Made by a program: the position numbers and the translations under genes. From positions 1,054,001 through 1,114,978 of the forward strand of contig JAWMAR010000578.1 of assembly GCA_036785375.1 (NCBI GenBank): a DNA stretch of 60,978 bases. The letters run 5' to 3'. Within the stretch, counting starts at the first letter, position 1. Each line of letters starts with the position of its first letter. The notes under the pieces are model-generated. The model was given only the letters and a program-made list of their open reading frames with translations. It had not been told where the DNA came from and made no database searches. The stretch comes from Leucoraja ocellata (Eukaryota). Below, piece by piece: positions 7,910 through 53,303 of this stretch.

Positions 7910-10900
7910 TCAGCCGTTTCTAGCACGATCTGTTAAAGAAACAAAACATTTAAAGTTTATATCAACTGAATTATTGTGATAAGTCCTCTAGCGTTCTTAC
8001 CCGTTTCTATCACATACCCGGAGGTCTTTCCATGTTCCTCTCTGTTCATTGTTTGCTCTGATGTCTCGACCAATCGGTCAACCTTTACCACGGAGCCTAG
8101 GCAGGAAGACAAATTAATTGGGTACTATAGTGCAGATTTGGCGATCGTGAGTTATTTTGAATGTTGACATATTTTCTTACACCACTCTTATTATGAGCCG
8201 ACAAGACATCTAACGGGGTTTAAGAGGGAACTGCAGATGCTGGAGAATCGAAGGTTACACAAAAAAGCTGGAGAAACTCAGCGGGTGCAGCAGCATCTAT
8301 GGAGCGAAGGAAATAGGCAACGTTTCGGGCCGAAGAAGGGTTTCGGCCCGAAACGTTGCCTATTTCCTTCGCTCCATAGATGCTGCTGCACCCGCTGAAG
8401 ACATCTAACGGGCACCGATTCCCTATTGCCCAATTTGTACTCCCGACTAAAATCGATTTGTCGCCTTTGTCTCCAGATGGGTTCGAAGTCAAGGCGAGAG
8501 AGTCACCACTAAATGATACTTTGAATAATTATCTGAACATCAGTTTCGAAGACATTCCCAACGCTTCATCGGTCAGGGATCAGCCGCGGCTGGGCTCCAT
8601 CCTTCAGAAGCAAAACAATGGGATGGGGACCAATTCGGGTAGATGCAGAAATCACAACATTCAGCGGAGTCCCGACTGACCACAAAAATGAAAGAAGGAA
8701 CGGCAATTTTCAAGCCGACAACTTTTAAATCAAAGGTTTGGGAAATAATCACTTTATCCAACATGCATTGGCCCAAGATAAACAGTTGCACAAAGCTGTA
8801 TCTTGAGGAAGGAAACCGCTCCAAGTTGCGACATCTAAATTACAACCGCTCTCATCTTCCAATTCTGCATGTGGCGTTTCATCATTGGAACAATTATTTT
8901 ATAACAGTTCGATTAGAAGACGGTATTGTATTCCTTGATATTAACGATGATTAACAATTTATTTTTCTAAGCTCTTTCAATGCCCTCTTTTGATTTTGGA
9001 TTTTTACAAGTGAATTTGGAACACTGGTGATAGCGGAGACTTGATGGAATTGTTGTCCTCTGTGAGTCTGGGGATGGAGAACTGATATCATTCTGTACCG
9101 TTTGGGGATCACGATCTTGTTATTAACAATGTGGCCAAATAGCATCAATTCACTTAGCGTCATTTGATTCTCCGCAGCACCATTTTACAGGGAATTTGAA
9201 GATGAACTCTAGAATTAAGCTTCATTCACCTTTGGCAGAGCTTGATCCAAAAACAATTCTCAAAGTAGCCAACACCAGTAGAATGATCAATGTACCTCCT
9301 ACATTGCGAAGGACAAGGACAACGCTGGCCGAACCTGCAGACGTAAAAAGTAATTGAGCAATAAGACAATTATCACAAGTGAATGAACAAACTATAGAAT
9401 TGTATTTGTGTAAAGAGCTTTATCAAGTGTCACTGTACTACAAAAAATATCCAAATAAAATAGCAATATTAGGCAAATGGACACTGTACAAAATAAACGG
9501 GAGATCTTGCTTCCAATATGAACAATATTGTTATTGCATTATATGTCAACGAGTGATACATTTCCAAGTCAAGCTAGTGTGCAATTTGGAAGGCAGCCTG
9601 CAGGCCGTGGTGTTCACATACACCTGCTGCCCTGGTCCTTGTTGGTGATCCAACATGTCCAGAAATCTATAAATGTCAATCCTCACTTTTCAAACATCTG
9701 CAACGCGTCGAGGTAGGGAATTACAAAGATTCACTCATCTCTGAGAAGAGTCATACAGTCACAGAGTGATACAGTGTGGAAACAGGCCCTTCGGCCCAAC
9801 TCGCCTACACCGGCCAACAATGTCCCTGCTAACCTAGTCCCACTTGCCTGTGCTTGGTCCATAACCCTCCAAACCTTTCCTATCCATGTACCTGTCCAAC
9901 TGTTTCCGAAACGATGGGATAGTCCCAGCCTCAACCACCTCCTCTGACAGCTTGTTACATACACCCTCCACCCTCTGTGTGAAAATGTTACCCCTCGGAT
10001 TCTTATTAAATCTTTTCCCCTTCACCTTGAACCTATGTCCTCTGGTCCTCGATTCCCCTACTTAGAAACATAGAAACATAGAAATTAGGTGCAGGAGTAG
10101 GCCATTCGGCCCTTCGAGCCTGCACCGCCATTCAATATGATCATGGCTGATCATCCAACTCAGTATCCCGTACCTGCCTTCTCTCCATACCCCCTGATCC
10201 CCTTAGCCACAAGGGCCACATCTAACTCCCTCTTAAATATAGCCAATGAAGTGGCCTCAACTACCCTCTGTGGCAGAGAGTTCCAGAGATTCACCACTCT
10301 CTGCGTGAAAAAAGTTCTTCTCATCTCGGTTTTAAAGGATTTCCCCTTTATCCTTAAGCTGTGACCCCTTGTCCTGGACTTCCCTAACATCGGGAACAAT
10401 CTTCCTGCATCTAGCCTGTCCAACCCCTTAAGAATTTTGTAAGTTTCTATAAGATCCCCTCTCAATCTTCTAAATTCTAGAGAGTATAAACCAAGTCTAT
10501 CCAGTCTTTCTTCATAAGACAGTCCTGACATCCCAGGAATCAGTCTGGTGAACCGTCTCTGCACTCCCTCTATGGCAATAATGTCCTTCCTCAGATTTGG
10601 AGACCAAAACTGTACGCAATACTCCAGGTGTGGTCTCACCAAGACCCTGTACAACTGCAGTAGAACCTCTCTGCTCCTATACTCAAATCCTTTTGCAATG
10701 AAAGCTAACATACCATTCGCTTTCTTTACTGCCTGCTGCACCTGCATGCCTACCTTCAATGACTGGTGTACCATGACACCCAGGTCTCGCTGCATCTCCC
10801 CCTTTCCGAATCGGCCACCATTTAGATAATAGTCTGCTTTCCTGTTTTTGCCACCAAAATGGATAACCTCACACTTATCCACATTATACTGCATCTGCCA

Positions 10901-13900: not shown

Positions 13901-16900
13901 CGGAGGTCTCCCTCTGTTCCCAGTTCTGTTTGCCAGTCTTACCTGGCTTGACGGTGTAGTCGACTCTGGCCGGGACCGCAAGGGAGACATGTGACACTAG
14001 GCAGGTGTAAATATCAACGCGCCAGGTAGGCTTCGTTACTTGGAGAAAGCTGGAAGCCACATACAACTCCTCCACGCTACTGGTGTTCACACGTTCTTCT
14101 CCGGTGGAAATTGTTACACCATTTCTTTGCCAGGATATTTTCACTTCCTTCGGGGAAAACGCAGCCGTTTTACACACAAGTCTGGGCGGCGAACTGCCAT
14201 TAACTTGGCTAATGCTCAGGGGAGTTGGCGGAGCTGTAACAGAAGAAAACATATGTTGCATATTTTCTTTCCAATTCAACGATAACATTCTAGTTTGCCT
14301 CGTCACACCGCGACCTTGCACTCCCACCATCAGATCGGTTATCGGTACAATCGCTTTTGCACCCACTGATTTGTCATTGTTTTAGATTTGACAGTGAAAT
14401 ATATCCAAGCAATACATAAGGAATCCGAGGTTTGGATGTAGGTAGTATGTGGGCTTCTGAACAATCGCCAATGTTCTGAAGTGCCAAATCAGTAGCGTGG
14501 AGGGGGGTGTATCATCGCTGGCAACAAAATTTTATGTTCAGTTCAAAAATGACTGTTTCTATGAGATTTTGGTGTAAAGAATGATACGTGTAGAGTGGAA
14601 TATCACAGAGATACACAGCACAGCACAGCACAGAGCAGCGCAGATTGCGTTATTAAACCTCCATCTCTACTTATTCATTTTTCATCTCCTGTCAACTTTC
14701 CTCTTCACTCCTCACCACGACCAATCAACCGGGACAATTTACAGAGACTAGTTTTCCTACCAACCTGCAGATCTGTGGCACGCGGAATAAACCGGAGCAC
14801 CGGAGGAACGTCTATGCGTTGAAGGGGACAACTATATATGGACGCACGCAGGATCTGGGTTGAAGGTGGGTCGCTGAAATTGTGGGCAGCGCTAACCAAT
14901 GTAGCGCTGTATATATCCAGATGTCACCAATATCAATAATCAAGAGGAAGGCCGTAGTTGCATAGATGAAAGCTTGGGCCACACAATTGTTTAATACCTG
15001 GGATGGAGGGCTCAAGTGATACAGCTTTTGGCCCGGGACGTTTCTCCACAACGCTAACTGAACAATTTGAGCATGATAGAGTTATACTAATAATTATTAA
15101 GAAGGAAATGCAGATGTCTGGAGAAGGATCTCGACCCATTCCTTCTCTCCAGTGATGCTGCCTGTCCCGTTAAGTTACTCCAGCTTTTTGTGTCTATTTA
15201 TTGATAATTAGTATCGCCGTGCAAATATTAGACACTTCTTCAATAATTACAATACGCGAATGGGAAATCCAAATTAGACTACGTCTCTTCTACAATTTTG
15301 CCATTTTCCAAATGTACTCGGTTTGTTGAAGACGTTTGGTCTGAATAAGATTTCACTTATATCAGCACGGAGTGGGTAATTTGCGAACGATGATCTACCT
15401 CCGTCGGATCTACAATCAGTAGGTAGTTAGTAGGAGGCCTCTTGTTAAATCGCTGTACGAGTTGATGACTACGAGTTTAATAAGTTTTAAATATTTTTAC
15501 ATTCCGTTTCTTTAGTAACAGGTTGTTGGATCGGTTTCTTTATTGAACTCGGAGGAGACCTCGATGCTTATTCTCAGCCTCGGCGAGTGCATCATCAGCT
15601 AAAACGTAAAATTAATATGTGGCACGAACACAGATCTATTTAGATAGAATGAATAACGTGGAGAGACTGATTCTTGTGGGAAACGTGGTTGAGTCATGTA
15701 AGAATGTAATTGTAAGGACGGGAGCTCAGGCGTTTGCCCCAATGCCGTTAAATCTTACTCGTATTTTATAAAGGTTAAGGGTTTAATGAGAATCCTCGGA
15801 GTGAGACGGTGATATTCTGTCCCTGGAGTAAGAATCGAGCAAATCAAACCTCTCAACGGTTTATAGGATTCATCTGTATAATAACCACGGTGGTTTGATC
15901 CGGGGTTCAGCTTCGTTTACAGCCGACGAATAAGAGTAGAATATTTAAGGCCGAGGCCGCTCCGTTGTTCAATTCAATCGTGGGTGGTTTGTGCGTCAGG
16001 TCTCTGTGTCACAAACCCTGTTGTCACATACCCCACGATACCTAATCTAAATGAATATTCTAACATCCCAATCTCGAGAGATCGATTTATTTTCGTGTTT
16101 CCAGACTTTAAGTGATTAAATGATTACAGATTTCGGAGAATCTGAATCGTGGGCAATAACGCCAAAGTGCACAGCGCGAATCTGCAGGAGAGCAATGGAA
16201 AATGTCTGGAGAAGTACGATATGAGGAAAAGGACATTTTCGCTCTACACAGATGCTGGCCCACTTACGGATTATTTAAATATATCAGATTTGGAACGGTT
16301 TGTTTTTATAGTATAAATCTTATCGAGTTTTTGCCGAGTTATAAAATGTCATGTTATTCATATCAGCGAGCTTTACTTGTACCCCGGGAAGCTTAAAATG
16401 TCTCCCTTACAGGGCACTTACCGAACACGGTGAGCCTTGAGCCAGGTCCATCTCCGATAGATTGCTGCTGTTGTTTCAATTTACAATAATAAACTCCGGA
16501 GTCCGCGATTTTCGTATTCAGGAGAATGAAATCCGCACTGCCCTTTCTGATAGAAAATTGTTTTCTGCTGTCTGGTTCTATAAATGTCTTCTCGCCCCAT
16601 CTCCACCAGTAAACATCAGGAGTAACTTGTTGTATTGAGAATGTGCAGAACATGGACGCATTGCCTCCTCTGTGGACGGTCAGGTCTTTAGGGAATTGGT
16701 CCACTTTGGTTGAAGTTACTTCGAAGGCTGCCAGAAATAAAACAAGAATACTGAAAACAGCTGGCCATCCGGACAAGCAAAATGAACAAAGAGTTGAAAA
16801 ATTCAAAATAAACTAGAATCGGACATAAACGAATTAAGAAGCACTGTAACTAAATTCGTGCTTGGTAACCAACATAGAATATTCTAAGGAGATACAAGAA

Positions 16901-17185
16901 ATGCACCGGCTGGTTTACAAAAAAAGACACCGAGTGTTGGAATAACTCAGCGGCCAGGAGTCTTCTTTAGATTCTGAAGTAGTTTCGACCCGAAACGTCA
17001 CCTATCCACGTTCTCCTAAGATGCTGTCTGACCCACGGAATTACTCCAGAACGTTGTGTCTTTTTTTTTTAAATAGAATATTATAAAACATGACATGGGA
17101 TTCGGAAACCCCACATGTATCTAAACGTACCGTGCCAAACTGTAGCCAGAAGAGTCATGTATCGAACTGATGCTCCAAACGACAT
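7910..17185 (-). CDS. Gene C: VJ-C1 Ig-superfamily receptor with Arg-containing TM and short non-ITIM tail (putative activating paralogue), 6 coding exons, 290 aa
   Basis: Exons: leader 17131-17185, V 16422-16727, C1 13943-14233, TM 9230-9334, cyt1 8001-8096, terminal 7910-7929 (DRARNG*). All junctions are phase 1 AG/GT, total 873 nt. AATAAA on the minus strand at 7768-7773. Confidence 0.8.
8218..8398. mobile_element. Penelope-derived fold-back insertion with 15-bp target-site duplication
   Basis: Perfect ~57-bp inverted repeat (8278-8334 / 8342-8398). AAGACATCTAACGGG occurs at 8203-8217 and 8398-8412. Confidence 0.75.
9230..9334 (-). CDS. Gene C transmembrane exon with intramembrane Arg
   Basis: GSASVVLVLRNVGGTLIILLVLATLRIVFGSSSAK, bounded by ctgcag| and G|gtgaat. 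Shares the VGG motif and the later Arg with the A and B TMs. Confidence 0.8.
9750..13565 (-). mobile_element. Older CR1 LINE, split by the 10064-11735 insertion
   Basis: RT fragments at 11706-11888, 12176-12496, 12669-12935 and 13054-13386. Its 3' end is at 9750-10062. Confidence 0.85.
10064..11735 (-). mobile_element. Young 5'-truncated CR1 LINE with an uninterrupted 520-aa RT ORF, nested in an older CR1
   Basis: ORF 10160-11722 contains SGVPQGSVLGP and SKFADDTKL, followed by a (TTTCTATG)n tail. Confidence 0.95.
13943..14233 (-). CDS. Gene C Ig C1-set exon
   Basis: LVCKTAAFSPKEVKISW...IYTCLVSHVSL, bounded by ttacag| and |gtaag. Confidence 0.93.
16422..16727 (-). CDS. Gene C Ig V-type (VJ-joined) exon
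   Basis: SMFCTF..VYWWRWG..DSGVYYC..GDGPGSRLTVF, bounded by ggcag| and G|gtaagt. Confidence 0.93.
17131..17185 (-). CDS. Gene C leader exon (MSFGASVRYMTLLATVWH)
   Basis: 55 nt, donor G|gtacgt, homologous to leaders A and B. Confidence 0.78.
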
Positions 17186-22270: not shown

Positions 22271-22304
22271 GGTCTGTTTCTATGACATGTCGTGAAATTG
22301 AAGC

Positions 22305-23510: not shown

Positions 23511-23779
23511 TTGGCTTGTCGATGTAGCAGAAACCATACGACACAAGACAGGTGTAGTCATCGTTATCCCCGGCAGGCGGCGTTATTTCCAAATAGCTGC
23601 AAACATAAAAAGGTCCGGCCGTGCTTTCACAGGGTGTTTTTTTTCCGGTCAGAACCTCCATCTCATTTATTCGCCATGCAATTTCAAAGCTCTCTGGTTA
23701 AAGGGCAGACGTTTTACACACGAGGTTACGAGGAGGAGAAATCCTTCAACCGGAACAAATTTTAAGGAAGTTGGTGGAG
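23511..23779 (-). pseudogene. Orphan degenerate C1 exon of the same receptor family
   Basis: tttcag|(A)PPTSLKFVPVEG, then a frameshift, then LVCKTSAL*PESFEIAW...YTCLVSY. In-frame TAA at 23698-23700, a C-terminal deletion, and a 269-nt length that is not a multiple of 3. Confidence 0.85.
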
Positions 23780-25014
23780 CTGAAACCAAATGAAGGCCTT
23801 CTCCATATTTGGATGAACACGTTGTCTCCTTTCTCCCCGCCTAATTGTATAAACTACTTATATTAGTTGGTCGATAAATGTTTTTTTTAACCGTCTGCGT
23901 TTGACGTTATATTATAAATTCTTGCATGGTGGGTAATAAGATGACGTTAATTTTGTGCAATGCACAAACAGGTTGAATCTAAGAACTGATACCATGCTTG
24001 TAAATGAAGCCAACGTGACGAAGATATTAATTGGCATCCAACTGCTGTGCGACACGTAGTAAATATTTGTTAAAAAGAGCTCGTTCAATCACTGTTTATG
24101 TGTCCGATGGATAGGAGCTTAGTGGACTGTGGCGTCGTATAATTGTTCAACGTTCATCGCGCTTAACGAGTTTTAAATTGTATAACGTTGTATAATTGTA
24201 TTGTATATTAATTGTATTTCACGGTTTCGGAAGATATTATCTAATTCAGTGTATTGATATATTTTATATAATAACTACTATATATTATATCTAATAAATT
24301 ACAATGAATACATTGCAAAGGTTCCAATAGTCGTTATTATCAATTTCAACTCAGAACAAATGGCTGCCAATTTTGCCACATGGCTGCCCGTGCAACCAAT
24401 TATATTGGGAGAGCAGAATAGAGGAGAATATTATTTCCTGTCACCAGGTTCAGTAATAACAACGCTTTGTATGTGGTTCAATTTCCATGTTTTCAAAAAA
24501 GGAATGATACATTTAATGCAGCAATCTAATTGATCTGTAGGTTACTTTGTATTACTTCTTTCCAAAATGAACACGTTATTGAACCAGGAACACGGAAGTT
24601 TCAAGAGGACTTTCAGAATATTTAGTTGAAATAAATAAATGACGCACATGCCTTTACCTTTGTTTATGTCCAATACGACGATAGGATTGATCTGCATCAT
24701 AGCTCATTCAAACATATGCAACGCAGACAAAAATGTTGGGGAAACTCCGCGGATGAGGCAGCATCTAAGGCGCGAAGGAAATGGGCAACGTTTCGGGTGA
24801 GGTGCTGCTCCTCCAATTTACGGTGGTCCTCACTCTGGCCATGGAGGAGGCCCAGGACACAAAGATCGGATTCGGAATGGGAGGGGGAGTTGAAGTGCTA
24901 AGCTACTGGGAGGTCAGGGTGGTTATTGCGAACCCAGCGGAGGCGTTCGGTGAAGTGATCGCCAAGCCCACGCTTGGTCTAACCAATGTAGAGCAGCTGA
25001 CATCTAGAAACGTA

Positions 25015-33466: not shown

Positions 33467-34680
33467 TCAACTTCTCGCTTTCCTTGAAACCTTTACACCC
33501 GCGTACATTGAGTATTTGTCATTGTGCTTAGATAGCGATGTTTCCTTGGAGTTGGAAAGCTGCAGGGAGGTGTAAGTCAGCTTGTCATCTACGCCTCGTT
33601 TGGTCTGTGAAATAAATTCAATATTGCCTGTTAACGCATCGTACAGTGACTTGGGAAAACAATCGATTTTCCAATACGATTGGAATATAACCAACAATTA
33701 TCATTTCTAGATTGCAGATAACGCCTTTCTTGCTCTAGCAGTGTAACACAAATATTAATGAAACATTTTCAATTTTATTCTCTCCACTTTGCCATCAACA
33801 CTTCGCTCACTCCTAGGTTATACCACTTGCCTAAACACGGGACATTTTAAGTGTCTAATTAGCCTACCACCCCTCACGTGATTCGAGATGTGCGAAGAAT
33901 TAGGAGCACCTCGGGAAACCCGCGAGGATGTAACAAATAACGTTCAAACATCACACTGACAGCACATACGGCCAGGATGCGTTTTACCTTGTGGCTGGAT
34001 ATACGAGGCCAAGCCATAATATCTCTCTCACTGTGTGATCTTCGTTAGATAATATGGAAATACTGCAAAGAGTGCTTGTCATATGTCCCAGATAGAACTG
34101 AAATTCTTACTTGCAGCAGCACGACAGAATAAGTAAACATAGTACTCTGTAAATAATATAATAAACCTCTCTGAGGTCCAGAGCCATCCTGCCACCTGTC
34201 CTTTATTGTGGATTTCCTGAATTCAGATTTCAATCTGTTCCGAATCACTGTCAGAATTTCTCATATTTCGTGGCGCTGGATATGCCCGTTGGCTGTTCCC
34301 CATCTTGTCTGTTTCTTAATTTCCCATTAATTTTGGACAGCATTCTACATTAAACCCGGGAAAAGAGATACATGGATGGCGTCGTGCAGCGGAATGTGTT
34401 GTTCGGCTCTATCTGGTTTCAACGTTGCAATTGGAAATTCGCCATTACGGCTTTTCCACAGTCGGACAAGGTCAACATTATGTTCACGTTACTTCATAAT
34501 CAATAGAAATAATTTCCTTTAAGCTGATATTTCCTTGGAATTATTTTCGTGCAAATACTTTTCCCTTACCTCGGCATAGACAACATTCTCTTCCTTTCGT
34601 CGATATTTGGTCATTTTTTTGCCATCACTCAAGTTTAGTGTTGCGTAGGCAGAGGCATCTTCACTTGACGCTTGCCGAAC
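33467..34680 (-). CDS. Gene B distal cytoplasmic exons (34570-34680 and 33467-33604) carrying ITIMs
   Basis: VRQASSEDASAYATLNLSDGKK...VVYAE | TKRGVDDKLTYTSLQ...KYSMYAGVKVSRKARS*. Confidence 0.87.
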
Positions 34681-37600
34681 CTATTAGAAAGTGACATTCA
34701 ACACAGTTAGCAGAGTGTCTGATGTGGTTCTTTAAAGAGTGAGTCTGGAAATTTCCCTTTAAAATAGCTGCAGAAAAATTCAAATATTTGGGAATTGAAA
34801 TTACTAGAAATTGCCAGGATATGTTTAAAGCCAATTATAATCCCTTACTCAAGAAATTGAATAATCTGATTAAATTCTGGAAAACACTTCCGATGTCCTT
34901 AATAGGCAGAATAAATGCTATTAAAATTATTTTCTTACCACAAATCCTATACCTATTTCAATCAATACCTATATATCTCCCAAAAAAGTTTTTCAAAAAA
35001 TTGGACTCAGACATTACAAATTTTATATGGGATTATAAATCCCATAGAATACAAATAGCACATCTTAATAAATGAAAAGAGTTGGGGGGTCTAGCGCTCC
35101 CTAATTTTATGTATTATAATTGGGCAGTAAATATTAAAAATATGAATCACCTGCTGGACAATTCTGCCCAGCAGGCGGATTGGATGGTAATGGAAAAAGG
35201 GGACTGCTCCCCGAGTAATATAGGAGCGACTATCCTCTCACCAATAAATTTGAATAATAAAAATTATAATAAAAATCCAATTATACATAACACAATTAGA
35301 ACATGGAAACAAATAAAACAGAATTTAAAATTAAGAAACCTATCTATTTTAATACCAATAGTCAATAATCCATCGTTTAAACCATCAATCATAGACAAAT
35401 CATTATACAATGGGAAAGAATGGGAATCAAAACGCTCGAAGATCTGTATGAATTGGGGAAATTACTATCATTTCAACAACTACAACTGAAATATAATTTG
35501 AAAAATAACCAATATTTTAAATATCTTCAAATTCGTGATTATCTGAAAAAACACACAAAAGACTATCATAATATGCCTCCCGACTTATTGGATGAAGCAA
35601 TGAAGACAAAGGCGGAATCAGCTAATCTAATATCGTACCTATATAATATCATTTTAAATATAGAAATACCCACAACAGATGGAATTAGAAGAGATTGGGA
35701 ACAAGAATTAGCAATACAAATTTCAAAAGAGAGCTGGTATAATCATTTACTACAGGTGCATAAATGTTCGATCAACGTACGACATACGCTCATCCAATTC
35801 AAAACATTACATAGATTATATTATTCAAAAAATAAATTAAATAAAATCTTCCCTAATGTTTCACCAATCTGTGATAAATGCCTGTGTCAAGAAGCTACCA
35901 TAGCGCACACTTTTGTTTTTTTGTACAAAAATCCAAAAATTCTGGTATGAAATATTTGATATTTTTTCAAAATTAATCAAAATAAAACTGGTACCAAAAG
36001 CAGAATGGATTATTTTTGGAATATCGGAAGGTAACCCTGAGCTAAACGTGTTTCAGAATAATTTATTTAATTACGGGCTGATAATGGGAAAAAAGCTTAT
36101 ACTTAAATTCTGGAAAAATGCGCCCACACCAACAATAAAAATGTGGATATCAAATATGTTTGAAACATTAAATCTGGAAGAGATGAGATTCCTCTTAGCA
36201 GGTAAAGCAGACCAATTCCAAAAGACGCGGTCTACGTTTCTGGACCTATTACATGTATGAGGTGCAATAGTAATTTTAAAAAATAAATAAATAAATAAAT
36301 GGTATCAGGACCTGGTAACCGGAGGTAAAACAACAAAAACAGACTTGGTTGGTAGTCCCCTTTCTGCGGAGTTTAATGTTATAATAGAGCGATTGTTCCT
36401 ATTTTCTTTTTCTTTTTTTCTAGGGTCTACTTTCTCACTTTACTTCCTTATCTAACTTCTTTTCTAAGGGGCTTTCTTTTCCCAACACTCTTGCACTTCA
36501 CGACTCTTGCGCACTTTCTTTACTTTCTTTACTTCTATCTTTTTCTTAAAGCTCAAAAAAAATGAAGCGGTACAAAAAATGTATTAAGATATATGTGTTG
36601 TGTAGTATTGTAATTTACCGTACTTCTAATAAAAATAAAATAAAAAAAGAAATAAAAAAAAAGAAACACAAACATACAGAATGAATGCAAAATCGGGGCA
36701 CGATACCATTTGAACTGCATTCAATTATATTTCTCAGAATGTCATTCTGAGAGCATTCAGTGCCAGTGTTTAACTTGTTTATTAATTTTGTAGCTTGCGA
36801 TTCATTTGGAACTATGAGACTGCAGGTTTAGTCGCTGCGCCCCTTCCAATATTAGAGGTGACAGGCAAAATTGTTTCCTTCTGGCCTGCAATGTTCGAAA
36901 ATTATATGGAATGAAACTGATATATTCTCTGCTGAACGTATAATTTCTGTACTGGTCCATCCCTCTTGGAAACACGAAGAATAGCTTCACCTACCGGTTC
37001 TACGCTATGACTTGCTTCCACGCAGTTTGCATTAATACCTACATGAAAAAAAAGAAATCTCGAATAACATTTTAATGTCAGGAAAATGTAAATTACGCAT
37101 TAGATTATAATCACATCTACTGCCCTTGAAGGCAGCGACAATCCCGTATACGTATCGGAGTATCACCGCCACAGTGTAGTGTGTTGTGCATTACCTTCAT
37201 ATACACCATCCGCGTTAGATCTGCACAACCGGCGGAAGCCAAATAACTCATCCTTCACATTTTGACGTTAAAGCAAATCAACAGTGCGAAAGGGCAGGGG
37301 AAATAATTGTATTTTAACTTACAACTAATAACTAGTATTGCTTTGGATTCTTGTTTCAATACTGCTCAGAATGCACCAACCGCTTTTCTATCAACGGGTG
37401 TGTGAAATGGAAAATTATGCAAGGTTCGTACCTCGTTGTGCCTTTAATACGAATCTTGTCAAAATTATAAGCAGAACTACAAATGACAGTCCGCCCACGA
37501 CACATCCGAGAATTAGAGTTTTGTCCGTGGTTTCTGGGGTCTCTGGAATGGCGAAAAATGAGAACAGTGAAGCATAAATACATACGCAGGGACCGGTAGA

Positions 37601-40122
37601 CAAGAAGGCACAGCAATCGTTCAATATTTTCGGCACAAATATGTTATGACTGCCACATGGCACGCATTGTACGGTAATGACGAATTTATAGAACTGATCG
37701 CATTATACGGCGGCTCTTTGCTGAGGTTTGGTTAGTAAGTTAAGATGAGTATTAATTTTAATTTTACAAAACTACGCCCGGTAGTTTGACAACGGTTTAA
37801 AAAGTCAGAATGCTATATTCTATATTCTGGATCTGACACCCTGGACCCGCCGCCACAGGTTCCAGTAAATATGAAAAGGAACTGGATTTTTGTGTTAGCA
37901 TAACTATCTAATTGTATTTGTAAATAGACACAAAAGAGCTGGAGTAACTCAGCGGGACAGGCAACATCTCTGGAGAGAAGGAATGGGAGACGATTTGGAT
38001 CGAGACCCTTGTTCAGATTGTATTTCTCGGCAGGCTGAAGTCTACGTTAAATGCCTCCCGGCTTACCTTGCTCGACAATGTAGCTGAAACTGGCAGGGGC
38101 TGTAAGAGATACGTGGGATACCAGGCAGGTATAAACAGTTTTGCCTGGCGTAGGCTGCGTATCGTGCAAAAAACTGGAAGCCTCATAAAGTCCATCCGCT
38201 GTTCTGTTTCTCACGGTTTCAATGCCGGTCAAAATCTCCACGTTGTTTCTTTGCCAGATTACGTCTAATTCCACTGGATAAAACGCAGCCGTTTTACACA
38301 CGAGTTGCGGCAAATGCGGTGCACTTCCTTCAATAGCAACAATTTTCAATGGAGTCGGGGGAGCTGGAACAATTTAAAAAAAGCGTGAAGCTGCAAAATA
38401 TATTTTATTTCAATGAACATAATTGTCGCTGAACCGTTGCTGCTGCCTCCTGTTATCCGTGTGGTTGTTTCTTGAGTTTATAATTTTGTTATACATTATT
38501 TTACGGAGGATATCAAGGTAAGTAGTGTAATTGAAACAAAGCATGAATGGAGTGCTGCCTAGCGCGATTATTATGAAGGAATGTGACACGGGTAGGTATT
38601 GCTTGGTAAGATTCCGTGACAGTGCTTTATGTTGAATTCAAAATCACGCATTTCTTCTGAACATTTTCTCTTTCTTATGTGCATATGGTAGTTACAGAAA
38701 ATGGACTGCACTGAATGGCAGAAGTACATCGGCGACAACTGCTTTTCTCGAAAAGCACGCAAGGATGAACGGAGCAAACTCTGTTTCTCATTTCATATAT
38801 TTTATTAACAAGACATTAACGACCATGGTTCCATTTGTGCTGGAGCTACTGTCAGTAATATTTAGCGAGCGGGAGAGTTAATTGTACCTTTTTTTTGTCA
38901 ATTCATTGCGTAATCACCTCGTTTCTGTTTAAGCATATTTATTTTTCCTTCATTTGTGTAATAAAATCTCATTGTACTATAATTATTAATTAATAAAGAT
39001 ATATTACATTTTACTCCCTGTGCCATATAAATGATTACCAAGCAAAGAAATAATATCGGAGAATTTCAGTTGTAGTTCTTTTTTTTTCTTTTTTCATTCC
39101 ATGAACTTTCCTGGAGACAGTGAATGTGAAAACAAAATTATCCACCTCAAAACTGTGAGGTCAATTTCTCCTCCGTTTTTAGTTGATGTGAAAGTTTGTC
39201 GGCGTGGGAAATTTGCAACTTTCTGGAAATTCGGAGTAACGTGAATTTGGTTGGGTATTTGAAAAGCTGGAGATCAAAATATAAAGTGACCTGCCAATTT
39301 ACAAGAGCCATAACCAGGGTAACGTCACTGTGACTTTTTAACATAACCCGGAGTAAATAAAACAAAACTATAACAGAACTCTCGCTGAACGTATATTGAC
39401 CGACTGATGGAATATTTTTCAGTATTTTCCCTTTATTTCAGATTTCCATCTCGGAAGTAACCATTAAAATTATAGAGCTAGTTAAGATTAATATTTCCAC
39501 CACCAGGAAGCTTTAGTAACATTGCAACAGAAGAACATACCCCACTACTCGTAACAAAGACACTTACTTAACACAATTAGCTGGGAGCCAGTTCCATTGC
39601 CGATATGTTTCACTCGACAGTAATACATCCCGAAGTCATCGACACTCACATTCAATAAAGTAAATGTACTCCTTCCCTTGCCTACTTTGAATTGTTTTCT
39701 GTTGTCCGATTCTATAAATGTCTTCTCGCCCTCTCTCCACCATGAAACGGCAGCGGTTTCTTTTAATATCGGAAATTTGCAGAACATGGTCTCATTTCTG
39801 CCCCTGGGGACCTTCAGGATTGCGGGGAATTGTTCCACTTTGCTCGAAGTTGCTTTTGTCAGTGGCAGAAATAAGTAAATATGATGAAAACATTTGTACA
39901 TACAGCACCAAGAAAAAGAGCCAATGGATACACAAATACAAAACAATTAGGAAATAATGGTTAGCCAATTGTAGAAACGTTGTAAATTTAATTTACTGTG
40001 GCATACTAGTGTAAAATATTGTCAAATATGATTTGCTTAGCGAAATCGGTACAGAAACTATGCATACCTTGACAAAGCAAAGCAAGAAGACCCATGTACC
40101 GAACCATTGCTTTCACCGGCAT
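33467..40122 (-). CDS. Gene B: VJ-C1-TM-ITIM Ig-superfamily receptor (paralogue of gene A), 7 coding exons, about 346 aa
   Basis: Exons: leader 40068-40122, V 39568-39852 (acceptor uncertain), C1 38067-38363, TM 37432-37542, cyt1 36995-37038, cyt2 34570-34680, cyt3 33467-33604. Frame is open. Tail motifs: SAYATL, VVYAET, LTYTSL, SMYAGV. Confidence 0.87.
34750..36665 (+). mobile_element. 5'-truncated L1-clade LINE (ORF2 C-terminus, zinc-knuckle region, 3' UTR, poly-A) in a gene B intron, antisense to the gene
   Basis: YLGIEIT...SLIGRINAIK...LPQILYLFQSIP...GGLALPN...CDKC......H..F. A-rich tail at about 36628-36665. Only a few stops and frameshifts. Confidence 0.9.
37432..37542 (-). CDS. Gene B transmembrane exon
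   Basis: ETPETTDKTLILGCVVGGLSFVVLLIILTRFVLKAQR. An alternative in-frame acceptor lies 9 nt downstream. Confidence 0.85.
38067..38363 (-). CDS. Gene B Ig C1-set exon
   Basis: LVCKTAAFYPVELDVIW...VYTCLVSHVSL, bounded by ttccag| and |gtaag. Confidence 0.93.
39568..39852 (-). CDS. Gene B Ig V-type (VJ-joined) exon
   Basis: TMFCKF..VSWWREG..DFGMYYCRVKHIGNGTGSQLIVL. Donor A|gtaagt. Confidence 0.9.
40068..40122 (-). CDS. Gene B leader exon (MPVKAMVRYMGLLALLCQ)
   Basis: 55 nt, from ATG to G|gtatgc, homologous to leaders A and C. Confidence 0.8.
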
Positions 40123-43530: not shown

Positions 43531-43544
43531 TTGGAATTGAAACA

Positions 43545-46489: not shown

Positions 46490-47581
46490 TCAGTTACACG
46501 TCTTTTTAGAAGTATTCACATCAGCGTACACCGTGTATTTGTTGTTCTGTTTGGATGCTGATGTTTTCTTGGGGTTGTGATGTTGCACAGTTGCGTAGGT
46601 CAGCTTGTCATGTCCACCTCTTTTAGTCTGCGAAAGTAATTAATGATCGGTGATTAGGCAATCATTCAGTGACGAATTTGAGCATACTGCTTTAAAATAA
46701 TATTTTATGCAACCCATCAGTTGTTATTTTTACAATGGTATTGATTTGCAGATTTATTTTTGGCTATACCTTTCTGCTTGATATTGAGTTTAAACGCGAG
46801 GAGCTGTTCTTGTCCCACAAAATAATTATTTTCTTTTTCTTTTATGTCAACTTCGATGTAATTACGAAAGTTAGGAGAATTGGTGAATGCTCAAAATTGT
46901 ATCGCAGTATTAAATATTTGGCATAATACGAAGCTCCTTTTAAAGTGTATTTGTGGGATTGGCGGGAATCCATTTTGCCTGTCGCGCCCAAGAGGTGGTT
47001 CGCAGACTGAAGCTACCGGTACCTCTCCAATAGACACCGCGGCTCGCGGCTTCATCAGCGGCACCGAAATGCAATAGAATATAAGTTGGTACTACTTCCT
47101 ATGGCTCTGCGTCCCCAGCTTTTGATACGAGTCCCCTATTCGGTGGATAATTTGAACGGCTTGTTTACTCTCTTTTCCCAGGCCATTGTCTTGCATTTGT
47201 ATTTAGTTTCGCCCTGATTATGAGAACTGGATAGGTTTGTGTGTTCCTAGCTTCCCACCCTTTATTTCTTCACATACAATTTACATTTGAATTTAAACCC
47301 GAATAAGGAAAGGAAAATTATATTTATGCTCTGATGAGCAGCGGGTGATAGGTTTTACTTAAATGAAGATTTGCCATTGTGCACTTATATTTTCCCTGCA
47401 GTTTGGAAAAGCAACTACATTTGGAACAATGCTCATTCCATATCTTAATTACGCTGTCCAAGAGCATTACCTGTGAATAGGCGACATGTTGTTCTTCTTG
47501 TAGACCATTTGAAAATCCTTTGCTCTCGCTTAAATTCAGTGTAGCATAGGCAGCGGTATGTTCAATTGGTGCTTGTCTCAC
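46490..47581 (-). CDS. Gene A distal cytoplasmic exons (47471-47581 and 46490-46627) carrying ITIM/ITSM
   Basis: VRQAPIEHTAAYATLNLSES...VAYSQ | TKRGGHDKLTYATVQ...KYTVYADVNTSKKTCN*. Exon sizes (111 and 138 nt) match gene B. Confidence 0.87.
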
Positions 47582-50500
47582 CTATTGGAAAAGTACATTT
47601 AATACTGCGGGTGACCAGGCTTATATAGCTGATAGGACACTAGAACTGTATCTGGGGCTGAAAATCGATGCACGCGGGATATAGAGGAATAGATTAACAT
47701 TTCACTTGCTTTCAATGATATTACCAACGATGTCATTTCAAGGAAGGGGGTGGACAATGGTGTTGGTCGAGTTTCCTGGCGATAAACATCACCAATAATT
47801 TGCACTGGGCCAACCACATTATGCTAACGCCATGAAAGCACACCATTGCCTCGACTTTCCCAGAGGACCAAGGAAAGTTGGACGGTCTCCAAAGTCTCTT
47901 CCCAAATTCCACAGCTGCACTGTCGAAATAATTATATGGGGATGAATCCCAAATTGGTTTAGCGACAGCTTTGCCCAGGACCTTAAGAAACGCAGGAACC
48001 TGTGATTGCAACCCAGCCAACCACGTAAACCAGCTTCCGTCATTATCTCCTCTTCCCTCGGCGGACAGAATACACAATAGCTTGAAATCGCCTCGTGTAA
48101 GATTTAAAAACGGCTTTATACTCGATGTTATCAAGTTACTAAACAGGCGTCGCGCAAGCTAATGGTGCAATCCTGATCTGTGATTTACCTCGTTCTGGTC
48201 CTTGAGTTTTTAAAATGTGCACTTTCTCTTTAGCTCTAACACAATATTTTGCATGCTGTGTCATTTCCCTTTTTGCACTTGGGTATGGTATGATTGTACC
48301 CATATATGGTATCCAGTTTCCGGATTGCACGCAAAATAAAGTTTATAATTGAATCTCGGTGTACATGGCAATAATTAACCAGTGCCAATACGAATATCAG
48401 TCTTTTGCAGATTTTGGAGATTTCTTCTTCTAAGCATTGCAGAGTGGAAGATGCATTTGCGGGATTCCATTTAGCAGTCAGTACAAAATAGTAATTTTGT
48501 GGGAAGCAGTTTCGATGCCACGTAGGCCATATCCGGTTAAATTGCCTTCGTTAAGGATCGAAGCCAAAACTGCAATTAACACGTTAAAGAACGGCACAAG
48601 AAAGCAAATTAAATTCTCGACAAAGGTTCTTTTCATTTTTATTTTAATTACCGTGCTTTGAAATTCAATATAATTTTTGCCTTAAAATTGCCTTGGGTTG
48701 ATTGTTGCACTTACTTTCCCATTGGTCAGCAACCCACAATCTCTTCGTAGTCTGATATTTGATACGTTCTCACTATCTAAAATTATATTTTTAAGTGTTC
48801 CTGCCACCCGAACTAATAAAAGCTCATATTTTCATCCTAAACATCACCTTTCACTTTAGAATAAATTAGGATATGATCTGGCATGGAATTGTCAAAAGAT
48901 GTTGAAGCAGATACAACAGGAATGTTCAAATTATTAGTGGATGTATACTTGACGTAACCTGAAAAATAAATAATGGGTTCATCCTGCCCTAGAGTATTCC
49001 ACGATACTATAGAATAAAACTGATTTATAATATTTCTGCTACGAATAATCCCTATTTTGAAACAAGAGGAGACATTTCACCTACCGGCTCCCCGTTCGGA
49101 CGTATTCCTACAGAGGTTACGTTATGGCCTAGAGGAATGAAACATGAGTTACATAAAAACAGCTTGAATTGTAAAGATTGATCTGTAGATTTTGACATCA
49201 ATCTTCTCATATTAATCAAATTTACTGCAGAAAATAAGAACGATTGCATTTTTAAATATCCGTTGGTGCTCAGCAGCACCAATTGTCACAATTATACCAA
49301 TACAACGCATCTTGTACTCTTTCGTGATGTTGCGCCCACTGGACCTAAATTTTAACTGAAACTTTAAAATTGTAATGGTTTATGAGGAACCGTGTCCATG
49401 TCGAAACAGCAATGTCATGTAAACATATGGAGATGTTTGGTTTTGCTCATTGCCACAGAAAACCACAGTTGTTTTTTCCTCAAAATCGTAATCTTCCATT
49501 GCATTAATTATCAATCGCACTGGATGTTTGAAAAATTCCTTATATTTGAAAATATATGCATAGGTGATAATTGAATACATCCAATTCCAAGCTGAAATAA
49601 TTGAATTTGAAGATCCATCATATTATCACACACATATATCAAAACCGGCTTCAGAACTCTCTTTACATGTCCATCTACGTTTCCTTTTCTCCTCTGTGAG
49701 CAAACACCATTGACATATCCATTCTCGTTTTAACTGTCGAAATGATTATTGTATGATTATTATCAATATTCTTACCGTGCCACATCTTTAAACTGAGTCT
49801 TATCACGATTATAATCAGAACTAAAATTACTGATCCACCTACTGCATAAACGATAATCTGTTTGCGACCAATTCCTGGTGGATTAACAGAAAATTTAGAA
49901 ACTGTAAAGAATTTATACATTTCAGAACAAATATACAAACGGCAGTCAACAAAGTAAATCATTTCGTAGGTGCATTTTAATACCCACATCGGAAAGTTTG
50001 GAAGGTATATCATGAGGCACCAGATGGAAGTTAGTAATGGAATCCACAGGACAAGCAATTGCCGTTGTATTGTGCCCATGTGCGGAGAGCTGCTTACTGA
50101 CGTTAAACGGAATATAGGCTTTATCTTTATATATTTCACCAGACAGTAGATAGATGCATATCCCAGGACGTTTTTGCTCATTACAACCATTATATCAATT
50201 CAGTTTGTCAATTCATCTCACACGGATTTCCTTACAAGAACTGATGAAGTACAATTAATTTTAAACAGCATGCAAGTGTTGCTTTCATGCGAATGAATGC
50301 GAGCCACATTTACCCTTACCCTTGTACGGAAAACTGTCCAGTTATTAATCTGATGGAATTTGATCTACCGCCCCAATATCATGTGTAACTGGCTCCAGTC
50401 TTACCTTGGCCCAGGGTATAACTGAAACTGGCCGCCACCTTCAGGGAGACATGTGATACCAGACAGGTGTAAATATCTTTGCCCTCCCCAGGCTGCGTTA

Positions 50501-53303
50501 TTTCCAAAGAACTAGTAGCCACAAACAATCCTTCTTCGCTCTGATTTTTCACAGTTTCGATTCCAGTGCGAATTTCCTCGTTATTTCTTAGCCAGAATAT
50601 TTCTAATTTCTCCGGATAAAAGGCGTCAGTTTTGCACACAAGTTTCCGTGGAGAGCCAAGTCCTTCAGCAGGAACAATTGTCAAGGGAGTTGGGGGATCT
50701 TAAGCAAAGAAAAAAAAATATCGGGTGTTCGCTTTCCATTACATTGTAAATATTTACATTTTATCTCGCCACCGAGTCGTATTTGGCAAGACCAAATTAT
50801 TTAATATTTAAACTTCCCAGTTTGTCGTTCATTTATACTCCCTTTCCTAGCGGACACCCGGACGAACTCCGCCAACATACAAAGAGGGTGAATTTAAGGA
50901 GTGCCAACAGAATTTAAGGAGTTCCAAAATAAACTCTGTTCTGAATGGACGTTCCCCGGTATCGCGCGAAAGTTTTTGCCAGAAGCCTGCCGTGATTATT
51001 TAAAAGTGGCCATGTTCGGATCATTCATATGTTGCAAAAGAAATGGAGCCATCATAATCGAAATATAACAGATTCGTATAGTGTGGTGACAGGAAGCGGT
51101 TATACATGAAGATTAATGATGAATCCCGTTAGCACTTTAAGTAGTATATGGATTAAATCTTCTCACCCTGGTCAAAAACACCCACTTCAACATTTAATCA
51201 CTACTCTACTCTACTCTACTCACTCCGACATGCGGGAGATAACCACTTATCACGTGTTTGCGCAGTAATCAACCAGAACCAGAACCAGATATGGGTTTGA
51301 AATGCCGATCACAACCATTTACCTGCATGTGAACCAAGTGCTGGAACACCTTTCTCGCCCATTGAATGCTTATAGTGAAACACCGTGGTTTCTATTACAA
51401 GCAATTTACGAGCGGCACTTATTCAATATCAGTATGTAGGAAAGAACTGCAGATGCTGGTTTAAACCGAATATATGTTGGAGTAACTCAGCGGGACAGGC
51501 AACATCTCTTCGGAGAAGGAATGGGTGACGTTTCGGATCGAGGTTTGAAGAAGGGGTATCGACCCCAAACGTCACTCATCCTTCTACCCAGAGATGCTGC
51601 CTGCCCCGCTGAGTTACTCCAGCATTTTGTGTCTCTATACAAATCAGTTCCATCTGTTGTGCCAACTTGGCGGCAGTGAATCGACAACGTTAGATCGGCG
51701 TTAATGATGATAGCTTGCAGAAGCCAAACGATGGAAAATAACAAGCTCTGTTTCTCGCTGTGCAGATTCTACTCATATAGGTCTGCACGTAAAAGGCCCT
51801 ATATTTGGCATTTATTAACGCGAACTCCTTCCGTACGAGCTGCAGCCGGTGTCTAACTGGACGGGGAGTTGATTGTTGGGTTGCTTTGTCCGTTTATTAC
51901 AAATCTTTAGAAAGCTTGACTTAATTCACTTAATCAGGATAATCTTTAATGATGAAATAAATGTTACTGTTTATTCCCGGACTTTAAATAATTTCATTTG
52001 AGATGTTGTTTACTTCTTTTTTCCCCCCGTACGTTGCCAAATTGGTTGAATAGACTGAGGTTATGCCTGACAAAATTAGTATCAAGCGATTTCAAAAAAA
52101 AGAAAAAAGATTTCATTGAAGTCAGCTTGGAATCAGCAGCGATGAGTCCCACATGTTGGAAGACCAAGGTCCTTGTGTTGCAGCAACACATTGGTCTTAT
52201 GAGGTTCTAAAGCTGTCGATGTAGAATAGAGGCATGACAGACTCTACCATCGACGTATTAAAATTGCTCCTACTCTATTTTCTTAGTGATGAGAAACCTG
52301 GACATCACACTCCAACCACTCAAACTAACAGGAATATTATTTTCAATATCTCATTGCAAAACATTTCTAACCACACCTCAGAATGAATTCCTTCCATCTC
52401 AGCATTTACCCGTTCTTAGCGATAAATCCATCTGGGAGATTGGCTTAAAAATTCGGGACCGCTAAATGAATGGGCTGCGCCAATTCATAGCGGCAATGAA
52501 AAGGCGTCTCGCAAAGTATCGTACAATGAACAGAATAACCCTCAATACCCACGCGTCCCACAAGTGCGACTCGACCTGCTGGTTATGTCCATTGTGCTTT
52601 GTTTTATTTTGAATTACTGGTCCCTGTAATTTAAAATTGTTATTACTGGATATTTATCAACAGGCGATTTTTCACATTGTCCTCGCGACTAGACTTTACA
52701 AATGACATAGAACTGAAAACTTGCTTATTTCCCTAACACACACACTCACCAAATACGGTGATCAGGCTGCCACTTCCATTTCCGATAACCTTCTGCTGGA
52801 ACTTTACTTGACAGTAATACAGGCCGGAGTCAGCGACACGCACATGTTGGAAAGTAAATGTTCCGCTTCCAGAATCTATGGTAAATTGTTTTCTACTGTC
52901 CGGTTCAAGGAATGTCTTCATGCCGTCCCTCCACCAATTAACGCCAATTTTGCCTTTCGATATTGGAAATTTGCAATACATGATAGCGTGTTCACCGCCG
53001 CCAACGTCCAAGTTGACAGGGAATTGGGACACTCTGTTCGAATAGACTTCGGTAGCTATCGGGAAAAAAGCAAGAACAATTGAAACAGTTGTAAACACTG
53101 GACAGAGAAAACAGGAACCAACTGTCGAAAAGCACGAAACAACTATAAACCCACGAGGGCCTAATAGATGAACCTAATAGCTCGAAACCAGGTCCGAATT
53201 TTCGTAAAATAATACTTAGACCAGAAATGGCACACATTTTAACTATACCCTGCGTTAGTATGACCAGAAGAGCCATGGACCAAACTCTAACTTTCACCGA
53301 CAT
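46490..53303 (-). CDS. Gene A: VJ-C1-TM-ITIM/ITSM Ig-superfamily receptor (SIRP-alpha-like / antigen-receptor-like), 7 coding exons, 348 aa
   Basis: Exons: leader 53249-53303, V 52750-53055, C1 50405-50698, TM 49776-49874, cyt1 49085-49128, cyt2 47471-47581, cyt3 46490-46627. All junctions are AG/GT with consistent phases (1,1,1,1,0,0). Total 1047 nt, open to TGA. Tail motifs: AAYATL, VAYSQT, LTYATV, TVYADV. Confidence 0.9.
47780..48380 (+). mobile_element. Old Rex1-type LINE 3' fragment in a gene A intron
   Basis: aacatcaccaataatttgcactgggccaaccacatt.., and a 3' UTR ending ctcggtgtacatggcaataa. Confidence 0.6.
49776..49874 (-). CDS. Gene A transmembrane exon
   Basis: GIGRKQIIVYAVGGSVILVLIIIVIRLSLKMWH, bounded by ccag| and |gtaag. 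Confidence 0.85.
50405..50698 (-). CDS. Gene A Ig C1-set exon
   Basis: LVCKTDAFYPEKLEIFW...IYTCLVSHVSL, the C1 signature. Canonical splice sites. Confidence 0.93.
52750..53055 (-). CDS. Gene A Ig V-type (VJ-joined) exon
   Basis: IMYC..VNWWR..DSGLYYC..GNGSGSLITVF. Acceptor ttttcccgatag, donor G|gtgagt. Confidence 0.93.
53249..53303 (-). CDS. Gene A leader exon (MSVKVRVWSMALLVILTQ)
   Basis: Runs from ATG to a phase-1 GT donor. It is 55 nt, the same length as the leaders of genes B and C, and has a hydrophobic core. Confidence 0.8.

What the first reader, a model, noticed from the sequence alone, without database searches (positions are those of the whole stretch)
7910..53303. Tandem cluster of non-rearranging, antigen-receptor-like VJ-C1 receptors forming a paired inhibitory/activating system
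Seen: three complete minus-strand genes and one relic share the layout leader (55 nt) - V with an in-exon J-like G strand - single C1 - TM - tail. Established: C1-set domains are largely confined to Ig, TCR, MHC, tapasin, SIRP and a few B7-family proteins, and V+J+C1+TM is the shape of a TCR chain. Here VJ is germline-joined in one exon, and I saw no RSS or separate J segments. Two members carry ITIM/ITSM tails and one has a charged TM with a short tail. That is the paired-receptor logic of SIRPalpha/beta, KIR and LILR. Inference: this is a probably uncharacterised chondrichthyan paired immune-receptor family, between SIRP/NKp30 and TCR/IgL in architecture, and relevant to the pre-RAG ancestor of antigen receptors. 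I cannot exclude that it is already auto-annotated as SIRP-like or NCR3-like.
Basis: partly seen in the sequence, partly recalled or inferred. Interest (0 to 1): 0.9.

Follow-up and report, generated by a model that had tools for sequence, protein, structure and literature searches.

The report
Shark-and-ray paired immune receptor family
These genes belong to a large, apparently unnamed family of cell-surface immune receptors in sharks, rays and chimaeras that come in braking and probably activating versions and are built from antibody-like domains without gene rearrangement, which makes them candidates for the self/non-self sensors of these animals' innate immune cells.

Summary
Three intact minus-strand genes (55-nt leader, single-exon V with J-like strand, one C1-set exon, TM, tail) splice in frame at GT-AG sites. 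Two have ITIM/ITSM tails; one has an Arg in the outer TM and a short tail. The relic is only a broken C1 exon. The window is the end of a larger array: 52 C1 matches genome-wide, about 37 without a probable haplotig. Relatives occur in sharks, rays and Callorhinchus under inconsistent automatic names (SIRP-, B7-H6-, tapasin-, IgL-, TCR-like). Pairing is supported: the Arg gene's ectodomain recurs in copies with neutral TM and tyrosine tail, and among 69 relatives TM-Arg and ITIM largely exclude each other. The family is its own clade beside AMFR-NUDT21, away from the B7-H6-like gene (by KCNJ11) and NSFL1C. A coelacanth SIRP-like gene is the weak best outside relative. The V is truncated (53 residues between cysteines, no C'/C'') and lacks the J phenylalanine, which weakens the pre-RAG-ancestor reading. 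It works like SIRP/LILR; SIRP orthology is unresolved, ohnology possible. Splicing and expression were not shown; key papers were unavailable.

The parts
53249..53303 (-). Gene 1 leader exon (55 nt, ATG at 53303)
52750..53055 (-). Gene 1 short V exon with germline-joined J-like G strand; N-glycan sequon where J has Phe
50405..50698 (-). Gene 1 C1-set exon
   Evidence: Pfam C1-set 49.8 bits
49776..49874 (-). Gene 1 transmembrane exon, uncharged
49085..49128 (-). Gene 1 tail exon 1 (44 nt)
   Evidence: only this donor keeps the frame; same donor in gene 2
47471..47581 (-). Gene 1 tail exon 2, two tyrosines (AAYATL, non-canonical)
   Evidence: homologous to relatives P0003, P0027
46490..46627 (-). 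Gene 1 last coding exon: ITIM LTYATV and ITSM TVYADV
40068..40122 (-). Gene 2 leader exon (55 nt)
39568..39852 (-). Gene 2 V(J) exon; FG loop four residues shorter than in its two closest copies
38067..38363 (-). Gene 2 C1-set exon
   Evidence: Pfam C1-set 36.3 bits
37432..37542 (-). Gene 2 transmembrane exon, uncharged
36995..37038 (-). Gene 2 tail exon 1 (44 nt)
34570..34680 (-). Gene 2 tail exon 2 with ITIM SAYATL
33467..33604 (-). Gene 2 last coding exon: ITIMs LTYTSL and SMYAGV
23536..23786 (-). Relic: isolated C1 exon with one frameshift and one in-frame stop; no other exon found
17131..17185 (-). Gene 3 leader exon (55 nt)
16422..16727 (-). Gene 3 V(J) exon
   Evidence: Pfam V-set 33.4 bits
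13943..14233 (-). Gene 3 C1-set exon
   Evidence: Pfam C1-set 51.2 bits
9230..9334 (-). Gene 3 transmembrane exon with Arg near the outer end
   Evidence: Arg kept in the 3 other copies found
8001..8096 (-). Gene 3 tail exon 1, no ITIM (least certain exon; no homologue seen in other species)
7910..7929 (-). Gene 3 last coding exon and stop

Best explanation
The window is one end of a tandem array of a large, old family of germline-encoded paired immune receptors of cartilaginous fish. Each is a single-pass, two-domain rod: a short V domain with a J-like G strand that binds ligand, on a C1-set stalk. Shown: gene structure, motifs, family size, copies with similar ectodomains and opposite signalling ends, own clade, locus by AMFR-NUDT21. 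Inferred from established ITIM biology: genes 1 and 2 are phosphorylated on their tail tyrosines by Src kinases and recruit SHP-1/SHP-2 to damp a myeloid or NK-like cell. Inferred from the position of the Arg: gene 3 pairs in the membrane with an FcR-gamma or CD3-zeta-type ITAM adaptor and activates. Inferred from paired-receptor theory: inhibitory members read a self ligand, pathogens or polymorphic self drive turnover of the V domain, and activating twins arise by changing the TM/tail exons. It works like SIRP, LILR and NITR, but is not shown to be a member of any of them.
For: Open GT-AG models with ITIM/ITSM or TM-Arg. 52 C1 and 52 V matches in the genome: C1 on C578 12, C26 26, C1270 14. 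Two genes on C578 (about 908 and 1046 kb) have gene-3-type ectodomains (V 85-86%, C1 93% identical) but an uncharged TM and a two-tyrosine last exon. Of 92 database relatives 69 had a TM: Arg without ITIM 13, Arg with ITIM 2, ITIM without Arg 35, neither 19; Fisher p 0.0008 (gene models, related species, not independent). Nine of those have Arg at -17 plus an acidic residue ending the TM, the pattern I recall from FcR-gamma-coupled receptors. An FcR-gamma-like TM exon exists in the genome. V changes faster than C1 among close copies: pN/pS 0.81 vs 0.46 (6 gene-1 types), 1.33 vs 0.08 (3 gene-2 types), 0.43 vs 0.36 (4 gene-3 types). Family clade 97/91 (C1), 87/95 (V), 98/95 (V+C1).
Against: No read joined the exons: four RNA runs gave almost no depth on the exons and appear to come from a related species. 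No ligand, cell type or adaptor binding was tested. Gene 3's tail exons have no match in other species, and its three other copies are 95-99% identical in the TM region, so they are not independent support. The tails of the neutral gene-3-type copies have Pro at -2 (PTYAAL, PVYADI), which is not a canonical ITIM. 19 of 69 relatives have neither signal, some probably truncated models. pN/pS exceeds 1 in only one small set; this is no formal test of selection.
Confidence: 0.7

Rival explanations
1. These are simply the chondrichthyan SIRP orthologues (two-domain form), moved to or from this chromosome; the automatic name is right.
For: Same V(J)-C1 order, paired design and four-tyrosine tail (bat SIRP-alpha P0160 has four ITIM/ITSM motifs). 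SHPS1-like is the commonest automatic name. Bat SIRP-alpha is among the best non-chondrichthyan hits of the full-length query (E 7.8e-21). AU tests do not reject family+SIRP (p 0.137) or family+coelacanth+SIRP (p 0.189). No Ig gene was found in 130 kb around NSFL1C, so no separate shark SIRP was found.
Against: NSFL1C is on C667, not on C26, C578 or C1270. Bat SIRP V scores about 12 bits on the family V profile against 32 for the coelacanth and 40-56 for turtle multi-V receptors. Cys-Cys spacing 53-58 vs 65. One C1, not two. Activating form uses outer Arg; bat SIRP-beta has a central Lys. In the genome search with bat SIRP-alpha the first six of nine weak matches were other loci.
Confidence: 0.22
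2. They are an expanded set of B7-H6 (NCR3LG1)-like ligands rather than receptors.
For: Several relatives are auto-named NCR3LG1-like. The model is an extended V-C rod; B7-H6 is among the tied top structural matches (Z 15.4, rmsd 3.4, 184 aligned). Family+B7H6 is not rejected (p 0.287). A frog B7-H6-like protein with two V-C1 units scored E 1.4e-24.
Against: A different B7-H6-like gene lies 20-30 kb from KCNJ11 on C40, the neighbourhood I recall for human NCR3LG1; no KCNJ match is on the array contigs. B7-H6-like V domains lack the GxG strand and have 67-73 residues between cysteines. TM-Arg versus ITIM pairing is a receptor trait.
Confidence: 0.07
3. Gene 3 is not activating: the Arg sits at the membrane edge or the gene is a decaying or decoy copy, and the cluster is an inhibitory family only.
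For: Gene 3's TM is a variant of the inhibitory-type TM and lacks the acidic end residue; a LINE lies in its C1-TM intron; its tail is unsupported by homologues or reads; one copy has a two-codon deletion just before the Arg.
Against: Aligned on the shared VGG and stop-transfer Arg, the Arg falls 16 residues into the helix with five hydrophobic residues before it. Arg at -14 to -18 without ITIM recurs in 13 relatives across sharks and rays. pN/pS is 0.36-0.43 in gene-3-type exons.
Confidence: 0.2
4. [quoted passage not shown]
For: Split leader, single-exon VJ, true C1-set, TM: the shape of a TCR chain. The top solved-structure match of gene 3's C1 is UrIg2 (a summed multi-domain score). Family+IgL is not rejected (p 0.11).
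Against: V lacks C'/C'' and the J Phe, often replaced by a glycosylation sequon, so Ig/TCR-type V-V pairing is unlikely (established structure knowledge). The locus is not the MHC or AgR complex where UrIg/UrIg2 lie (PMC12227049). No tree joins it to IgL.
Confidence: 0.08

Closest known systems
SIRP family (SIRP-alpha / SIRP-beta1)
   Same: Non-rearranging V with J-like strand plus true C1-set; tandem paired family; four-tyrosine ITIM/ITSM tail
   Different: One C1, truncated V, outer TM Arg instead of central Lys, located by AMFR-NUDT21 rather than NSFL1C; about 37 genes
Coelacanth XP_005987622 (auto-named SHPS1/SIRP-beta-like)
   Same: V-C1-TM-ITIM/ITSM; its first 28 of 47 matches in this genome are this family; weak sister in trees (93/59)
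   Different: Longer V (63 between cysteines); itself uncharacterised; its locus could not be checked
B7-H6 (NCR3LG1)
   Same: V + C1-set rod; similar predicted shape
   Different: Separate gene next to KCNJ11 in this genome; no GxG strand; ligand, not a paired receptor family
NITR (ray-finned fish)
   Same: Germline VJ, clustered, inhibitory and activating forms
   Different: NITR second domain is an I domain with six cysteines (bioRxiv 2021.06.11.448072); here a two-cysteine C1-set
UrIg / UrIg2, PRARP (VJ-C1), NCR3/NKp30
   Same: Single-exon VJ; UrIg and PRARP have C1 domains; NKp30 has a TM Arg (recalled)
   Different: UrIg has 3-11 C1 domains and lies in the MHC or AgR complex; NCR3 has no C1 (recalled); a different VJ-C1 pair with full-length V lies on C175 and falls outside the family in all trees
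LILR / KIR / GPVI-type paired receptors
   Same: ITIM versus outer-TM-Arg signalling logic (recalled)
   Different: Those use C2-set domains; no homology claimed

Membership tests
SIRP | V-set with J-like strand followed by C1-set | tested here: met
SIRP | Two C1-set domains (SIRP-alpha/beta/gamma) | tested here: not met
   one C1 exon per gene; some non-mammalian SIRPs are shorter (recalled)
SIRP | Tandem ITIM/ITSM tail in the inhibitory member | tested here: met
SIRP | Central TM Lys for DAP12 in the activating member | tested here: not met
   outer Arg in gene 3 and relatives; bat SIRP-beta has Lys
SIRP | Linkage to NSFL1C (recalled human/chicken locus) | tested here: not met
   NSFL1C-like exons on C667; array on C578/C26 by AMFR-NUDT21; contig-level assembly, name assigned by recall
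SIRP | Clade with tetrapod SIRP | tested here: inconclusive
   not recovered, not rejected (p-AU 0.137); one SIRP sequence only
SIRP | CD47 binding, myeloid expression | not testable with these tools
   no data
B7-H6 | Linkage to KCNJ11 | tested here: not met
   another V/C1 gene occupies that place on C40
B7-H6 | V + C1-set extended ectodomain | tested here: met
   (tied with other B7/BTN and MHC II rows)
B7-H6 | Clade with B7-H6-like proteins | tested here: inconclusive
   not recovered, not rejected (p-AU 0.287)
NITR | I domain with six conserved cysteines | tested here: not met
   second domain has two invariant cysteines and C1 hallmarks
TCR / IgL | Split V and J with flanking RSS | tested here: not met
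   J-like strand inside the V exon; no RSS beside any V
UrIg / UrIg2 | Three or more C1 domains, MHC or AgR-complex linkage | tested here: not met
   one C1; neighbours AMFR, NUDT21
PRARP / Xenopus VJC1 genes | Sequence clade and locus as published | not testable with these tools
   Fu 2019 and Ohta 2019 not held; the C175 VJ-C1 genes may be PRARP (inference) and are outside the family
NCR3 / NKp30 | Single VJ domain, no C1, MHC-linked (recalled) | tested here: not met
   C1 exon present in all three genes; no named shark NCR3 sequence was compared
Skate MDIR | CD300/pIgR-like V and C2 modules (recalled) | not tested
   no MDIR sequence at hand; search listing only

The most novel reading that the evidence does not exclude
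The family is the whole-genome-duplication sister (ohnologue) of SIRP: a V(J)-C1 paired receptor existed in the proto-gnathostome outside the MHC paralogon, one copy became SIRP on the chicken-20/human-20 chromosome and the other, on the chicken-11/human-16q chromosome, survived in coelacanth and expanded in cartilaginous fish into their main germline NK/myeloid self-sensing repertoire. AMFR and NUDT21 are human 16q genes (recalled) and chicken 11 and 20 are ohnologous (PMC7471279). This would date V-J-C1 receptors with paired signalling before RAG and outside the proto-MHC.
Probability: 0.3. Interest if true: 0.82.

Novelty: new variant of a known kind. Interest (0 to 1): 0.62.

Why it matters
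Large paired receptor families (KIR, LILR, Ly49, NITR, CHIR) are how vertebrates set the threshold of innate killer and myeloid cells. For cartilaginous fish few such families are described; NITR homologues were reported as not found there. A family of dozens of genes, kept on one chromosome from chimaera to rays, with copy-number difference between two probable haplotypes, gives concrete candidates for shark and ray missing-self or pathogen-sensing receptors and can be tested by single-cell expression and ligand screens. It adds a member to the short list of C1-set proteins outside antigen presentation, and its locus bears on whether V-J-C1 receptors arose only in the proto-MHC. It also shows that five different automatic names in RefSeq cover one family.

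Tried and rejected
RNA: no RNA holder listed; four raw-read runs (4 of 12 listed) laid on 33400-53399 gave depth only on repeats, 0-0.08 in the bins holding V, C1 and TM exons, no exon joints among those shown, with fixed differences suggesting another species; gene 3 was not covered. Not evidence either way. Homodimer prediction of the Pristis ectodomain: no answer, score 0.00. PDB profile searches were swamped by multi-domain summed scores; Foldseek listed only antibody chains at rmsd 8-12; SIRP was not among the 50 VIA rows shown, which does not exclude it. ESM Atlas gave only generic V/C1 clusters and generic LRR for a flank exon, so DNAAF1, NECAB and EEPD1 names for C26 neighbours rest on recall. 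A GPCR search found no marker on the array contigs among 147 scored. The coelacanth query found only itself in the word-indexed search. My first tail model (donor at 49081/36991) broke the frame and was replaced. A possible extra tail exon in gene 1 near 48855-48958 is not needed for the frame and was left out. Trees used 13 of the database relatives and 6-7 other own-genome members, one SIRP, no TCR, NCR3, UrIg or PRARP by name; no sister group was rejected. Literature searches with no description of this family. Not held: Ohta 2019, Fu 2019, Flajnik 2012, Dornburg and Yoder 2022, Flajnik 2023, Ohta and Flajnik 2015. The elephant shark supplement search gave 0 hits and may have missed picture tables. 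Earlier scan notes: none.

Full report
Observation. Six-frame motif scans found three V exons and three C1 exons on the minus strand. Reading the DNA and fixing borders gave three open models of 348, 346 and 290 aa with 55-nt leaders and GT-AG introns. Pfam calls the second domains C1-set and the first V-set/I-set. The C1 hallmarks given in PMC2785349 (passages read) are met. Genes 1 and 2 have uncharged TMs and ITIM/ITSM tails; gene 3 has an Arg 16 residues before the cytoplasmic border and no ITIM. The relic is a lone broken C1 exon. Four loose RSS-like sites occur, none beside a V.

The family. The window is the right end of contig C578. Gene 3's C1 has 52 matches and its V 52: for C1, 12 on C578, 26 in clusters on C26 (7.83-8.50 and 11.96-12.15 Mb) and 14 on C1270. 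C1270 carries the same NUDT21 flank, so I take it as the other haplotype; that leaves about 37 intact-looking C1 exons (lower bound, not checked gene by gene). The relic-gene 2-gene 1 block is repeated on C26 at 93-98% identity. Database relatives come from Pristis, Hypanus, Hemitrygon, Mobula, Narcine, Heterodontus, Scyliorhinus, Chiloscyllium, Hemiscyllium, Heptranchias, Carcharodon, Mustelus and Callorhinchus, named SHPS1-like, NCR3LG1-like, tapasin-related, Ig lambda-like, TCR beta-like or uncharacterised; where a species has several named hits from a chromosome-level record they share one record length, that is one chromosome.

Pairing. Two genes on C578 have ectodomains close to gene 3's (V 85-86%, C1 93%) but an uncharged TM and a last exon with two tyrosine motifs. 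Three other gene-3 copies keep the Arg. Among 92 relatives scoring at least 65 bits on the family C1 profile, 23 had no TM call; of 69, Arg and ITIM co-occurred in 2, Arg alone in 13, ITIM alone in 35, neither in 19. These rows are automatic models from related species, so p 0.0008 overstates the case. Nine rows show Arg at -17 with an acidic residue closing the TM, the arrangement I recall for FcR-gamma-coupled receptors; the bat SIRP-beta fetched here uses a central Lys. A TCR-zeta-family search found two TM exons, one FcR-gamma-like by recall. Among close copies V diverges more than C1, without a formal selection test.

The V domain. Cys-to-Cys spacing is 53 in the window genes and 53-58 in the family, against 63 (coelacanth), 65 (SIRP-alpha), 67-73 (B7-H6-like, IgL, C175 VJ genes). 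The AlphaFold2 model of the Pristis relative (65% identical to gene 3's V; pLDDT 90) has no strand between C and D and a G strand broken at GxG. The J Phe is replaced by Asn or Asp, in genes 1 and 2 as a glycosylation sequon. By established Ig structure this residue sits in the V-V interface, so antigen-receptor-type pairing is unlikely (inference). The rod-like model ties among MHC II, B7-H6, PD-L2, butyrophilin and a skate VNAR (Z 15-16).

What it is not, and what is open. The family is one clade in V, C1 and joint trees. The coelacanth SIRP-like gene is a weak sister (93/59) and finds this family first in the genome (28 top matches of 47). AU tests reject none of SIRP, B7-H6, the C175 VJ-C1 genes or IgL as sister (p 0.11-0.29). 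Synteny says more. C578 runs AMFR (single copy) - NUDT21 - array. C26 flanks hold an LRR gene, a septin, an EF-hand gene and a helix-hairpin-helix gene, which I recall as DNAAF1, SEPT7-like, NECAB and EEPD1-like. A B7-H6-like V/multi-C1 gene lies by KCNJ11 on C40. NSFL1C-like exons are on C667 with no Ig domain in 130 kb around them. AMFR, NUDT21 and DNAAF1 are human 16q genes and SIRP lies by NSFL1C on human 20 (both recalled); chicken 11 and 20, the matching chromosomes, are ohnologous (PMC7471279, passage read). Hence the reading that this family is a duplication sister of SIRP; it is not tested beyond that.

Literature. Ten full-text searches gave no description of this family. Passages read: PMC12227049 (UrIg2), PMC10751288, PMC3964593 (supplement search 45, no hits), PMC11599192, PMC2785349, bioRxiv 2021.06.11.448072 (94; section 18 in full, 99), PMC11372145 (108, no SIRP/NCR3/ITIM hit), PMC7471279. 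The papers most likely to have noticed it (Ohta 2019, Fu 2019, Flajnik 2012, Dornburg and Yoder 2022) were not held, and Kinlein 2021, Janes 2023 and the MDIR paper are recalled only, so a prior mention cannot be excluded.

Against. No transcript support was obtained, gene 3's tail is the weakest part of the model, and ligand, cell type and adaptor are inferred.

Verdict. A real, large, apparently unnamed paired V(J)-C1 receptor family of cartilaginous fish that works like SIRP/LILR (0.7), is not B7-H6, NITR, UrIg or a rearranging receptor, and is of unresolved relation to SIRP. The design principle is known, so it is a new variant of a known kind; the link to the RAG-invaded gene is weaker than first proposed. 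Interest 0.62.

Noticed in passing
window 10163-11752 (-): 530-residue open frame of a LINE reverse transcriptase inside gene 3's C1-TM intron; a 99% identical copy lies in the neighbouring gene at about C578:1040-1042 kb but is missing from the gene-3 copy at 927 kb, so a recent insertion
   Followed up: partly
window 26400-26751: GC-rich 45-bp tandem repeat (7 copies) within a probable retroelement 5' region
   Followed up: no
window 24131 (-): RSS-like heptamer-23-nonamer about 345 bp upstream of the relic C1 exon; no V or J remnant found beside it
   Followed up: partly
G000:C175:1.14-1.20 Mb (L029, L030): Two other non-rearranging VJ-C1 genes with full-length V and an EIPPP motif in the FG loop, on the contig that also has a CD3-zeta-family exon; possibly PRARP-type
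   Followed up: partly
G000:C105:6079357 (L036): A lone family-type V exon on another contig, with no family C1 match there
   Followed up: no
G000:C40:6.475-6.488 Mb (L026, L027); C424: The B7-H6-like gene next to KCNJ11 has one V and at least five C1-like exons; further B7-H6-like multi-C1 genes on C424
   Followed up: partly
P0111, P0156 (turtles): Turtle multi-V(J) receptors, one with an outer-Arg TM and one with a tyrosine tail, auto-named NCAM2 or FCRL5-like; their V domains score best among non-chondrichthyans on the family V profile (40-56 bits): another possibly unnamed paired family
   Followed up: partly
G000:C26:7.9-8.5 Mb: Part of the distant cluster is present twice in inverted orientation (mirror-image matches)
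   Followed up: no
G000:C578:1033 kb (L074): Another family C1 exon split by an insertion, followed by an intact-looking TM exon
   Followed up: no
window 48855-48958 (-): Open stretch with splice-like ends ending in LIYSK in gene 1's tail intron; could be an optional exon but does not fit the modelled phase
   Followed up: no
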